37,359 nt of DNA from an uncultured archaeon (GTDB lineage: Archaea > Thermoproteota > EX4484-205 > JAAOZP01): the NCBI GenBank assembly GCA_938045545.1, contig CALIBN010000030.1, forward strand, positions 1 to 37,359. Reading direction: 5' to 3'. The notes under the pieces were generated by a model. The model made no database searches, was not told the origin of the DNA, and saw nothing but the letters and a program-made list of their open reading frames with translations. Shown here one piece after another: positions 23,714-37,359 of this stretch. The position numbers and the translations under genes are program-made. The stretch's first letter is position 1. Each line of letters opens with the position of its first letter.

Positions 23714-23824
23714 GCCCTGGTGGTGTAAAGGTTAGCATTGGAGGCTGTCACCCTCCCGATCCGGGTTCGAAAGCACTGGCACGCGATAAAGCGCTAAAAA
23801 GTGCCGATATTCCCGGCCAGGGCG
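23714..23824 (+). tRNA. tRNA-Asp(GTC) with 39-nt intron at 59/60 (23772-23810)
   Basis: GCCCTGG/CCAGGGC acceptor, GGAGG-CTGTCAC-CCTCC anticodon arm, CCGGG/CCCGG T-stem; BHB TTCG-AA^A-GCAC...GTGC-CGAT-AT^T. Confidence 0.92.
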
Positions 23825-36959: not shown

Positions 36960-37046
36960 AACCCTTCAAGAAAAACTAGATTTAACAGTTAAACAACAAT
37001 TTAAAGCAAAACATTTTTATCCACCCCAGAATACTTGAACAACCGC

Positions 37047-37163
37047 GGACCCGTAGCTCAAGCGCACAGCGGAGCAGCCTGGTTAGAGCGCTGGGCTTTT
37101 AACCCAGAGTTGGTTTAAAAAACCGCGGGGGAAATGTTGCGGGTTCAATTCCCGCCGGGTCCG
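37047..37163 (+). tRNA. tRNA-Lys(TTT) with introns at 15/16 (16 nt, 37062-37077) and about 43/44 (26 nt, 37108-37133)
   Basis: GGACCCG/CGGGTCC acceptor, GCTC/GAGC D-stem, CTGGG-CTTTTAA-CCCAG, GCGGG-TTCAATT-CCCGC. Confidence 0.9.
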
Positions 37164-37190
37164 CATACCATCCAATTGCCGAGGATAAAA

Positions 37191-37198
37191 TTTAATAG
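37191..37198 (+). promoter_or_regulatory. BRE/TATA of tRNA-Ile
   Basis: ATAAAA-TTTAATAG, 32 bp before GGGCCAG at 37223; same spacing as for tRNA-Asp (31) and tRNA-Lys (32). Confidence 0.6.
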
Positions 37199-37222
37199 CC
37201 GGCTTTAGGGATGAAAGGAGCA

Positions 37223-37352
37223 GGGCCAGATCTAGGGTCGGGCCAGATGAAAGACAACAGCCCAATGGCCCAGCCTGGTTAAGGCGCCCGGCTGATAACC
37301 GGGAGATCGCCGGTTCGAAGGTGTTGCACTACCGAGAATCCGGCCTGGCCCA
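37223..37352 (+). tRNA. tRNA-Ile(GAT) with intron(s) at 7/8 (37230-37246 and 37247-37265) and at 59/60 (37320-37338)
   Basis: The CTGGCCC-A 3' acceptor strand needs GGGCCAG, found only upstream of inserted sequence; CCCGG-CTGATAA-CCGGG; BHB TTCG-AA^G...CGAG-AA^T. Confidence 0.85.
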
Positions 37353-37359
37353 CTTTTAA

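What the first reader, a model, noticed from the sequence alone, without database searches (positions are those of the whole stretch)
37223..37265. tRNA-Ile with introns at position 7/8, apparently two in tandem and born by exon duplication
Seen: the 5' acceptor strand GGGCCAG is separated from U8 by inserted sequence, and GGGCCAGAT occurs twice (37223, 37240). Intron A (17 nt) has GGCC-AG^A...GGCC-AG^A with a perfect self-complementary helix. Removing it regenerates the junction for intron B (19 nt), GGCC-AG^A-TG...CA-GCCC-AA^T. TATA spacing (32 bp, as in the Asp and Lys genes) favours the first copy as the true 5' end. I do not recall 7/8 introns or tandem same-site introns being described. 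Inference: a short duplication of a palindromic exon segment creates a splice motif de novo, a possible snapshot of intron birth with recursive splicing. The 5' exon would be only 7 nt plus leader, and the acceptor stem must be open during splicing.
Basis: partly seen in the sequence, partly recalled or inferred. Interest (0 to 1): 0.85.

Follow-up and report, generated by a model that had tools for sequence, protein, structure and literature searches.

The report
Recent 7/8 insertion in tRNA-Ile gene
The only isoleucine (GAU) tRNA gene found in this uncultured archaeon carries a newly acquired 36-base insertion right after its first seven bases, which most likely has to be cut out as an unusually placed intron and so gives a rare look at a very young tRNA intron.

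Summary
The 5' acceptor strand occurs twice (37223-29 and 37240-46), and 36 nt (37230-37265) separate the first copy from U8 (37266). Two samples assemble it identically. All 18 tRNA-Ile(GAU) gene copies in 16 same-genus genomes lack it, including a sister genome with an identical leader. It is therefore a recent gain exactly at 7/8, and the first copy is the ancestral 5' end.

Removing the 36 nt, or only the last 19 nt, together with the canonical T-loop intron (37320-38), restores a perfect cloverleaf. No other archaeal tRNA-Ile(GAU) gene was found in the 92%-complete MAG. A crenarchaeal-type two-subunit splicing endonuclease and RNase P RNA are present.

The insert folds with exon nt 9-13 into a near-canonical hBHBh' motif whose 3' cut is exactly the insert's end. 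The 5' strand of the motif carries one extra nucleotide.

Its first helix has no flanking helices and a predicted pairing probability of about 0. I favour one 19-nt 7/8 intron, with the first copy trimmed as leader.

Origin by local duplication is suggestive only. No RNA data exist. This is a new variant of a known kind.

The parts
37186..37198 (+). TATA-like promoter box of tRNA-Ile (AAAATTTAATAG). It is conserved in all same-genus orthologues and ends 25 nt before the first acceptor copy.
   Evidence: Sequence. Orthologue upstream regions. Spacing compared with tRNA-Lys (26 nt) and tRNA-Asp (24 nt), read.
37223..37229 (+). First copy of the 5' acceptor strand (GGGCCAG). This is the ancestral, orthologous 5' end of the tRNA.
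   Evidence: The leader plus this 7-mer are identical to G006 (L004), where it is followed directly by U8. RNAfold pairs it with 37345-51 at p 0.88-0.97.
37230..37265 (+). 36-nt lineage-specific insertion at tRNA position 7/8.
   Evidence: It is absent from 18 of 18 same-genus gene copies. Relatives' contigs skip exactly these bases, and two samples carry it. There is no other copy in the genome.
37235..37239 (+). GGGTC, the 5' strand of the outer helix (h) of the BHB-like motif. It pairs with exon nt 9-13 (37267-71).
   Evidence: MFE structure and p=0.75 at 37 C. An outer helix of 5 bp or more together with a 4/4 central helix at the exact 3' boundary occurred in 60 of 20000 shuffles.
37240..37246 (+). 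Second copy of the 5' acceptor strand. Its GGGC (37240-43) forms the central 4-bp helix with GCCC (37260-63). It is the proposed 5' exon end, with the cut at 37246|37247.
   Evidence: Removing 37247-65 plus the T-loop intron gives a 7/7-paired tRNA-Ile(gat).
37247..37265 (+). Proposed 19-nt intron at 7/8. It has inner helix TG/CA, central-helix strand GCCC at 37260-63, and a 3' bulge A64 A65|T66.
37266..37319 (+). Middle exon, U8 to A59, with anticodon GAT at 37294-96.
   Evidence: It is identical to the bodies of L002, L003 and L004.
37320..37338 (+). 19-nt T-loop intron at 59/60 with a canonical hBHBh' motif (H TTCG/CGAG, bulges AA|G and AA|T, h' 3 bp, h 5 bp).
   Evidence: Homologous introns occur in G006, G007 and G010.
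37339..37352 (+). 3' exon: U60, the T-stem 3' strand, acceptor 3' strand CTGGCCC (37345-51) and discriminator A (37352). The contig ends 7 nt later.
37047..37163 (+). Upstream tRNA-Lys(TTT) gene with two non-canonical introns. The Lys-Ile synteny is shared with most same-genus relatives.
   Evidence: Rfam score 55.3 bits. Upstream regions.

Best explanation
The 36 nt at 37230-37265 are a recently gained intervening sequence at position 7/8 of the only archaeal tRNA-Ile(GAU) gene found in this genome. The insert carries a second copy of the 5' acceptor strand. It folds with exon nt 9-13 into a near-canonical hBHBh' splicing motif, made of an outer helix 37235-39/37267-71, a central helix 37240-43/37260-63, a 3-nt bulge A-A|U whose cut is exactly the insert's 3' end, and a 2-bp inner helix. 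The most likely route has three steps. First, the crenarchaeal-type two-subunit splicing endonuclease cuts at 37246|37247 and 37265|37266, and the ligase joins the second acceptor copy to U8, removing a single 19-nt intron at 7/8. Second, the remaining 17 nt upstream (the old acceptor copy plus a 10-nt spacer) are removed as a 5' leader by RNase P. Third, the T-loop intron is removed through its own perfect BHB. Shown here: the insertion, its uniqueness and youth, the motif, the restored cloverleaf, and the presence of the enzyme genes. Inferred: that splicing happens, the exact cut sites, the order of steps, and the use of the second copy.
For: The DNA is real in two samples, and relatives skip exactly 36 nt. 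The insert is absent from 18 of 18 same-genus gene copies in 16 genomes. G006 shares an identical leader and 94.3% identity over 1650 nt of flank. In-silico removal of 36 nt or of the last 19 nt, plus the T-loop intron, gives tRNA-Ile(gat) with 7/7 acceptor pairs, and the 75-nt product differs at 1 base from the intron-less G016 gene. A scan for GAT anticodon arms found only this gene and one on a 3150-nt bacterial 16S-Ile-Ala spacer contig that is a contaminant. Two ARAGORN 'Ile' calls are unspliced tRNA-Arg genes. The MFE structure and ensemble give h and H at p 0.74-0.75 at 37 C. The motif at the exact 3' boundary appears in 60 of 20000 shuffles and at 1 of 84 other insertion sites. Two EndA paralogues are present: the alpha-like one matches 3p1z_B at 5e-46 and keeps the Y..H..K pattern, and the other is beta-like. 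RNase P RNA is present. Imperfect central helices are common in this genus's tRNA-Ile introns: 4/4 pairs in 8, 3/4 in 6 and 2/4 in 3 of 17. Two-subunit enzymes with the crenarchaeal loop cut relaxed BHB/BHL substrates (PMC12397907, passages). Intron presence/absence differs at several other tRNA genes between G000 and G006, so young introns are normal in this lineage.
Against: There is no RNA evidence of any kind. The 5' strand of the motif has 8 nt where a canonical BHB has 7. A strict two-nucleotide ruler from the perfect helix would therefore cut at 37245|37246 and give a wrong product, while the register that gives the right product has a C.C mismatch plus an unpaired G40. The motif's probability falls to 0.44 at 60 C and 0.12 at 80 C in favour of a plain hairpin 37240-45/37266-71. 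After in-silico removal of the 19 nt, RNAfold pairs the FIRST copy with the 3' strand (p 0.94-0.99) and the second copy hardly at all (0.002 or less), so RNase P would have to capture a minor conformer. RNAfold ignores tertiary structure and proteins. Other young introns in this genome mostly have 4/4 central helices. The MAG is 92% complete, and two relatives carry two tRNA-Ile copies, so an unassembled intact copy cannot be excluded.
Confidence: 0.42

Rival explanations
1. There are two same-site introns: a 17-nt intron A (37230-46) is spliced through the palindromic GGCC/GGCC helix, which regenerates the junction for the 19-nt intron B (or B is removed first, then A). The first copy is the mature 5' end.
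For: The first copy is the ancestral 5' end and sits at the normal TATA distance. RNAfold keeps the first copy in the acceptor stem before and after removal of B, so something must still remove the 17 nt. GGCC/GGCC with AG|A on both sides is present. Ordered removal of adjacent introns is known (PMC8450103).
Against: Helix A has p of about 0.000 at all three temperatures, and its flanking helices are 1 bp each (plus hand parse). Only 1 of the 10 equivalent registers gives any helix, and it exists only because GGCC is a palindrome. [quoted passage not shown] Nt 37235-39 of 'intron A' are used as the outer helix of the better motif.
Confidence: 0.12
2. The whole 36 nt leave in one piece, with the first copy as 5' exon. 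The 5' cut is at 37229|30 and the 3' cut at 37265|66.
For: A single insertion event fits a single excision. The 3' site is well presented. The first copy holds the acceptor stem in the predicted fold.
Against: [quoted passage not shown] The helix between the first copy and 37260-63 has p 0.000 and an inner helix of 1 bp (hand parse).
Confidence: 0.1
3. The insertion has crippled the gene (a young pseudogene or weak allele). A functional tRNA-Ile(GAU) gene lies in the unassembled 8% of the genome or in co-existing strains.
For: The BHB is imperfect. The insert is unique to this lineage, with no conservation to argue for function. The MAG is 92% complete. G010 and G014 have two copies each. The contig breaks 7 nt after the gene in all three assemblies.
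Against: No second archaeal GAT tRNA was found. No insert-less contig appears in X1 or X2 (though contigs drop rare variants). The exons, promoter and T-loop BHB are intact. The 3' boundary coincides with a BHB cut site at p of about 0.003 by shuffle.
Confidence: 0.22
4. The insertion is an assembly or sequencing artefact.
For: The gene lies about 130 nt from a contig end and contains short repeats.
Against: The MAG contig, a Logan contig of X1 (depth 34) and a Logan contig of a second sample X2 are identical.
Confidence: 0.03
5. This is a rival for the origin only, not for function. The direct repeat of the 5' acceptor strand is the scar of a mobile-element integration and loss at the tRNA 5' end, which brought in a replacement 5' fragment that already contained the intron (the model of Sugahara et al. 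2012).
For: A direct repeat of a tRNA 5' fragment upstream of an intron-bearing gene is the signature described in PMC3293823 (passages). tRNA-Ile sits at an assembly break.
Against: Only 10 nt lie between the repeats, with no recombinase gene. No other copy of the insert is present in the genome or in two public collections.
Confidence: 0.1

Closest known systems
Non-canonical BHB introns of crenarchaeal (Thermoproteales-type) tRNA genes, including the acceptor-stem 3/4 intron
   Same: A short intervening sequence lies at a non-37/38 position of an otherwise complete tRNA. The BHB-type motif is built from exon plus intron. The genome has a two-subunit endonuclease and many multi-intron tRNAs (review PMC4090602, passages).
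   Different: Position 7/8 is not among the positions listed in the passages I could read (3/4, 20/21, 22/23, 25/26, 29/30, 30/31, 45/46, 53/54, 56/57, 59/60 'etc.'). The motif has one extra nucleotide on the 5' strand. Its outer helix is made from inserted 'leader-like' sequence and D-stem nucleotides. The insert contains a second copy of the 5' exon.
Closely spaced archaeal tRNA introns that must be removed in order (tRNAscan-SE 2.0, PMC8450103)
   Same: The idea that one intron must go before the next BHB can form (passage).
   Different: In the known cases the introns lie at different nearby positions. Here both would lie at the same junction because of a 9-nt repeat, and the first one lacks a credible BHB.
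Caldiarchaeum subterraneum tRNA-Thr(GGU) heterogeneity (PMC3293823)
   Same: [quoted passage not shown]
   Different: In that case a 1.8-kb element with a recombinase separates the repeats. Here the separation is 10 nt and there is no element.
Intron transposition among Thermoproteales tRNA genes (Fujishima et al. 2010; seen only as cited in PMC4090602)
   Same: Recent intron gain within a genus.
   Different: No related intron exists elsewhere in this genome: the best other hit is 16 nt with 1 mismatch at E 2.3.
Repeated tRNA intron gains in Asgard archaea with no known arrival route (bioRxiv 10.64898/2026.10.13.758758)
   Same: Terminal-branch gains were found by comparison with compact relatives. 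A few insertions lie in the acceptor stem or junctions. The arrival route is unknown (abstract and section 2.4).
   Different: This is a different lineage. The sister allele and the flanks are available at 94% identity, so the insertion can be read base by base.

Membership tests
Archaeal endonuclease-spliced (BHB) tRNA intron | Removal of the intervening sequence restores a complete canonical tRNA | tested here: met
   removing 36 nt or the last 19 nt, plus the T-loop intron, gives tRNA-Ile(gat) with 7/7 acceptor pairs. The product has 1 difference from an intron-less orthologue.
Archaeal endonuclease-spliced (BHB) tRNA intron | Two 3-nt bulges on opposite strands separated by a 4-bp helix, with at least one flanking helix and cuts after the second bulge nucleotide | tested here: inconclusive
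   The 3' side is canonical (h 5 bp, H 4/4, bulge AA|T at the exact boundary). The 5' strand has one extra nucleotide, read either as a 4-nt bulge or as a C.C mismatch plus a bulged G.
Archaeal endonuclease-spliced (BHB) tRNA intron | The genome encodes a splicing endonuclease able to cut non-canonical sites | tested here: met
   Two PF01974 genes were found. The alpha-like one matches PDB 3p1z_B at 5e-46 and the second is beta-like. The attribution of those PDB entries to crenarchaeal heterotetramers is recalled, not shown by the tool.
Archaeal endonuclease-spliced (BHB) tRNA intron | The spliced product or excised intron is seen in RNA | not testable with these tools
   No RNA run holding the locus was listed.
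Nested or sequentially spliced multiple introns | Each intron has its own BHB, the second forming after removal of the first | tested here: not met
   Intron A has H 4/4 but flanking helices of 1 bp and p of about 0.000. After removal of B, the fold offers no BHB for the remaining 17 nt.
tRNA pseudogene | Damaged exons or promoter, and a functional copy elsewhere | tested here: inconclusive
   The exons and promoter are intact. No second archaeal copy was found in a 92%-complete MAG. Absence cannot be proven.
Mobile-element integration scar at a tRNA gene | Direct repeat of a tRNA fragment flanking an element or its remnant with a recombinase | tested here: not met
   A 9-nt direct repeat is present, but only 10 nt lie between the copies and there is no element copy elsewhere.
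Tandem duplication | The inserted sequence equals the adjacent sequence in register | tested here: inconclusive
   The 36-nt register gives 15/36 identical (reached by 844 of 20000 shuffles). The last 19 nt against the 19 nt upstream give 11/19 (141 of 20000). TRF finds no array.

The most novel reading that the evidence does not exclude
The locus is a snapshot of de novo birth of an archaeal tRNA intron from local sequence. On this reading, a template-switch or duplication event at the centre of the acceptor/D-arm quasi-palindrome copied pieces of the leader, the acceptor strand and the D-arm (the last inverted). The result would immediately have created a spliceable BHB at a position (7/8) not previously catalogued. 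The old and new acceptor strands would still both be present, and removal might need two steps.
Probability: 0.15. Interest if true: 0.85.

Novelty: new variant of a known kind. Interest (0 to 1): 0.55.

Why it matters
How archaeal tRNA introns arrive is an open question. Transposition between tRNA genes and mobile-element integration have been proposed, and a 2026 census of Asgard genomes found no general route.

At this locus an insertion can be compared base by base with an intron-less sister allele at about 94% flank identity. It lies at an acceptor/D-arm junction that the position lists I could read do not include. It carries a duplicated 5' exon end, and its splicing motif is one nucleotide away from canonical.

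If it is spliced, it extends the known positional and structural tolerance of the crenarchaeal-type endonuclease. It would also give a concrete substrate for testing how a fresh insertion becomes an intron. If it is not spliced, it shows what a failed gain looks like in an essential single-copy gene.

Tried and rejected
- **RNA evidence.** No RNA holder was listed for the locus. Only DNA contigs could be laid.
- **Other alleles.** A gapped pattern for any 10-40-nt insert at 7/8 of this tRNA found 7 loci in genome contigs and 7 in metagenome contigs. None of the 14 is a tRNA-Ile. The window's own genome may be left out of those scans.
- **Source of the insert.** blastn-short against the genome gave only the self hit.
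- **Tandem array.** TRF found none at score 30 or more.
- **Genome-wide intron catalogue.** This was unreliable and I did not use it for counts. ARAGORN accepted many unspliced genes as long-variable-arm tRNAs and mislabelled several. Only strict 3-4-3 motifs were tried, and 10 of 46 Rfam candidates gave nothing.
- **tRNA-Thr(CGT) as a precedent.** It has two copies of its acceptor 7-mer, and I considered it a precedent for a transcribed leader copy. I rejected this because the upstream copy directly follows the TATA box and is probably not transcribed.
- **RF02357 (type T RNase P).** Nothing rang in any genome, so this is uninformative.
- **Literature.** Sugahara 2008, Fujishima 2010, Marck & Grosjean 2003, Sugahara 2007 and Randau & Soll 2008 are not held. 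Supplements are closed. I therefore could not check the primary catalogues of intron positions for 7/8. Searches and the passages read gave no mention of 7/8.
- **Organism name.** It was not determined.

Full report
**What is there.**
Bases 37223-37352 encode a tRNA-Ile(GAU) that standard tools miss. ARAGORN finds no tRNA in the whole window. Rfam reports only the neighbouring tRNA-Lys above threshold. At a permissive threshold Rfam gives this gene 28.0 bits with a wrong acceptor alignment.

Read by hand, the gene has these parts:
- The 5' acceptor strand GGGCCAG is at 37223-29 and again at 37240-46.
- U8 is at 37266.
- The body runs from 37266 to 37319.
- A 19-nt T-loop intron lies at 37320-38.
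- The 3' exon is 37339-52, with CTGGCCC at 37345-51.

The repeat finder confirms the 9-nt repeat GGGCCAGAT (spacing 17). It also shows an 8-nt repeat GATGAAAG (37210 and 37246, spacing 36) and a quasi-palindrome GCAGGGCCA/TGGCCCAGC centred on the 7/8 junction.

I removed either all 36 nt (37230-65) or only the last 19 nt (37247-65), together with the T-loop intron. ARAGORN then called a tRNA-Ile(gat) with a fully paired 7-bp acceptor stem. Without removal of the insert it finds nothing, or only a 4-of-7-paired pseudo-stem. The 75-nt product differs at one T-loop base from the intron-less gene of relative G016.

**The DNA is real.**
- A contig of run X1 (the probable source; 8665 nt, depth 34) covers 37000-37359 with no difference.
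- A 331-nt contig of a second sample of the same study (X2, depth 4) covers 37029-37359 with no difference.
- One contig each from X3 and X4, which are relatives, skips exactly 37230-37265.
- All three assemblies stop at 37359, 7 nt after the gene.

**The insertion is unique and young, and the first copy is the ancestral 5' end.**
A search of 40 related genomes gave the orthologous gene in all 16 same-genus genomes. In each of them GGGCCAG is followed directly by U8. The second copies in G010 and G014 are the same, so 18 of 18 copies lack the insert.

The closest relative, G006, has a leader identical to the window's right up to the first GGGCCAG. Its flank is 94.3% identical over 1650 nt. G006 shares the T-loop intron and in addition has a 28-nt 37/38 intron that the window lacks.

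A gapped pattern for any 10-40-nt insert at this junction found 14 loci in two public collections, and none is a tRNA-Ile. The 36 nt have no second copy in the genome.

The TATA box ends 25 nt before the first copy. The same distance is 26 nt for tRNA-Lys and 24 nt for tRNA-Asp. Transcripts therefore start at or just before the first copy.

**The gene is probably needed, and the enzymes are present.**
A scan for GAT anticodon arms found only two tRNA-like hits. One is this gene. The other lies on contig C20, a 3150-nt bacterial 16S-tRNA-Ile-tRNA-Ala spacer that is a binning contaminant. Two loci that ARAGORN labelled 'Ile' in a crude catalogue are unspliced tRNA-Arg(CCG) and tRNA-Arg(TCG) genes.

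The MAG is 92% complete, so a missing second copy cannot be excluded.

The genome encodes two splicing-endonuclease paralogues.
- The first is alpha-like, 187 aa, and matches PDB 3p1z_B at 5e-46 with the catalytic Tyr/His/Lys pattern.
- The second is 200 aa and lacks the catalytic pattern, so it is beta-like.

This is the two-subunit architecture that the literature links to relaxed substrates (PMC12397907, passages). That the matched PDB entries are crenarchaeal heterotetramers is my recollection. Archaeal RNase P RNA is present, with two hits.

**How the insert could be removed.**
RNAfold on the precursor 37220-37352 gives the following picture:
- The first copy sits in the acceptor stem (p 0.88-0.97).
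- The insert folds with exon nt 9-13: 37235-39 pairs with 37267-71 (5 bp) and runs directly into GGGC 37240-43 paired with GCCC 37260-63.
- This leaves A64 A65 U66 as a 3-nt bulge, so a canonical cut after the second bulge base is exactly the 3' end of the insert.
- These helices have p 0.74-0.75 at 37 C, 0.44-0.45 at 60 C and 0.12 at 80 C. At the higher temperatures a plain hairpin 37240-45/37266-71 takes over.
- A 2-bp inner helix (TG/CA) closes the loop.

The 3' strand between the inner and outer helix has the canonical 7 nt. The 5' strand has 8 nt. The motif is therefore one nucleotide away from hBHBh'. It can be drawn with a perfect central helix and a 4-nt 5' bulge (C44 A45 G46|A47).

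The 3'-side arrangement (4/4 central helix, outer helix of 5 bp or more, exact boundary) occurred in 60 of 20000 shuffles of the insert. It occurred at 1 of 84 other positions when the real insert was moved.

Imperfect central helices are normal in this genus. Of 17 tRNA-Ile introns in the orthologues, whose boundaries were set by comparison and not by motif, 8 have 4/4 pairs, 6 have 3/4 and 3 have 2/4. All but one of them have a 5-bp outer helix.

**Testing the two-intron model.**
'Intron A' rests on GGCC/GGCC alone.
- Its flanking helices are one wobble pair each.
- Its pairs have p of about 0.000 at 37, 60 and 80 C.
- Of the ten equivalent 17-nt registers allowed by the 9-nt repeat, only this one gives a helix, and it does so because GGCC is a palindrome.
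- Part of 'intron A' (37235-39) serves as the outer helix of the better motif.

One result goes against my favoured route. After in-silico removal of the 19 nt, RNAfold still pairs the first copy with the 3' strand (p 0.94-0.99). It locks the second copy into a hairpin with nt 9-13. RNase P would therefore have to act on a minor conformer, or the 17 nt would need another removal step. Secondary-structure prediction ignores the tertiary fold and proteins, so this does not decide between the routes.

My weights for the possible fates of the insert are:

| Model | Weight |
|---|---|
| One 19-nt intron, with the first copy trimmed as leader | 0.42 |
| Crippled allele | 0.22 |
| One 36-nt piece | 0.10 |
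| Assembly artefact | 0.03 |

**Origin.**
- The insert shares GGGCCAG and GATGAAAG with the 27 nt upstream.
- Its nt 37232-45 are close to the reverse complement of exon 8-20.
- Its last 7 nt resemble the acceptor strand at 4 of 7 positions (hand reading; ARAGORN even uses them as a pseudo-acceptor).
- In the tandem-duplication register the insert matches the 36 nt upstream at 15 of 36 positions, a value reached by 844 of 20000 shuffles.
- The last 19 nt match the 19 nt upstream at 11 of 19 positions, reached by 141 of 20000 shuffles.
- TRF sees no array.

Pairing requirements of a BHB would also produce part of this similarity. Local duplication or template switching at the quasi-palindrome is therefore a reasonable but unproven origin. 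Transposition from another tRNA gene has no support. A mobile-element scar lacks any element.

**Context.**
Between G000 and G006 several other tRNA genes differ by insertions of 12-40 nt.
- G000-only examples: 14 nt, 18 nt, 23 nt, and a pair of 18 and 23 nt in one gene.
- G006-only examples: 17 nt and 19 nt.
- In one search, 39 of 45 loci found a counterpart. Some, including tRNA-Ile itself, fell out through my 85% identity filter.

Intron turnover is therefore rapid in this lineage. Most of those young inserts have 4/4 central helices.

**Comparison with what is known.**
Non-canonical BHB introns, including one in the acceptor stem at 3/4, are known (PMC4090602). So is ordered removal of adjacent introns (PMC8450103). 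Proposed gain routes are transposition, mobile elements (PMC3293823) or an unknown route (preprint).

I found no mention of 7/8 in three full-text searches or in the passages read. The primary catalogues were not held and supplements are closed, so I cannot state that 7/8 is undescribed. [quoted passage not shown]

**Verdict.**
The locus is a real, very recent intervening sequence at 7/8 in an apparently essential gene, with a near-canonical splicing motif and a duplicated 5' exon end. Whether and how it is spliced is inferred only. I class it as a new variant of a known kind, with interest 0.55.

Noticed in passing
G000 contig C20 (3150 nt), tRNAs at 173-246 and 276-348: The contig holds a bacterial 16S 3' end, then tRNA-Ile(GAT) and tRNA-Ala(TGC) with encoded CCA. 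It is a bacterial rRNA-operon spacer binned into this archaeal MAG. It would give a false 'second tRNA-Ile gene'.
   Followed up: yes
G000 C16:71821-71990 (L048) and 15 same-genus orthologues (L069-L083): In tRNA-Gln(TTG), a second copy of its 5' acceptor strand lies 2 nt upstream of the gene (AGCCCGG-GA-AGCCCGG). Some form of this is conserved in all 15 genus orthologues printed, with slight variants in a few. It contains the palindrome CCCGGG and could form a leader hairpin with the acceptor strand. The same gene has a conserved D-arm intron whose central BHB helix uses acceptor nt 5-7 and U8.
   Followed up: partly
G000 C47:17502-17671 (L047) and orthologues L049-L068: The acceptor 7-mer of tRNA-Thr(CGT), GCCTCGG, also stands directly after the TATA box, 24 nt upstream, in both G000 and G006. 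Other species keep GCCYC there. It is probably promoter spacer and not transcript.
   Followed up: partly
G000 C13:5044-5349 and C16:26196-26488: There are two full-length matches to archaeal RNase P RNA (219.7 and 190.4 bits) in one MAG. This is either a true duplication or a second archaeon in the bin.
   Followed up: no
L004 640-1437 (G006, downstream of tRNA-Ile); G000 C16, C10, C12 and C17: A 265-aa ORF without any Pfam match follows tRNA-Ile in G006. At least 8 paralogous stretches (66-77% nt identity) exist in G000, and several lie within about 200 nt of tRNA genes. In G000 the contig ends before the expected copy.
   Followed up: partly
window 23714-23824: A tRNA-Asp(GTC) gene carries a roughly 38-nt T-loop (59/60) intron. 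Rfam gives it only 17.9 bits and ARAGORN misses it.
   Followed up: partly
L007 (G008) and L023 (G013), tRNA-Ile genes: Their 37/38 introns end in TTGAGCCGAC and pair only 2 of 4 positions in the canonical central helix. The T-loop intron of L007 also fits no canonical register. These are candidate relaxed BHB or BHL substrates in sole-copy genes.
   Followed up: partly
G000 versus G006, several tRNA loci (e.g. C17:91719-91812, C18:10236-10334, C16:51104-51230, C16:67113-67201, C42:9743-9847, C10:103897-103969): Two genomes with about 94-97% identical flanks differ by the presence or absence of 12-40-nt inserts inside tRNA genes. Three tRNA-Arg isoacceptor genes of G000 carry related introns (AGAGGATT...), and the G006 counterparts compared for two of them (Arg-TCG, Arg-GCG) lack them.
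   Followed up: partly
window 37359 (contig end): The MAG contig and the Logan contigs of X1 and X2 all end at the same base, 7 nt after tRNA-Ile. This points to a repeat or strain-variable region immediately downstream.
   Followed up: no
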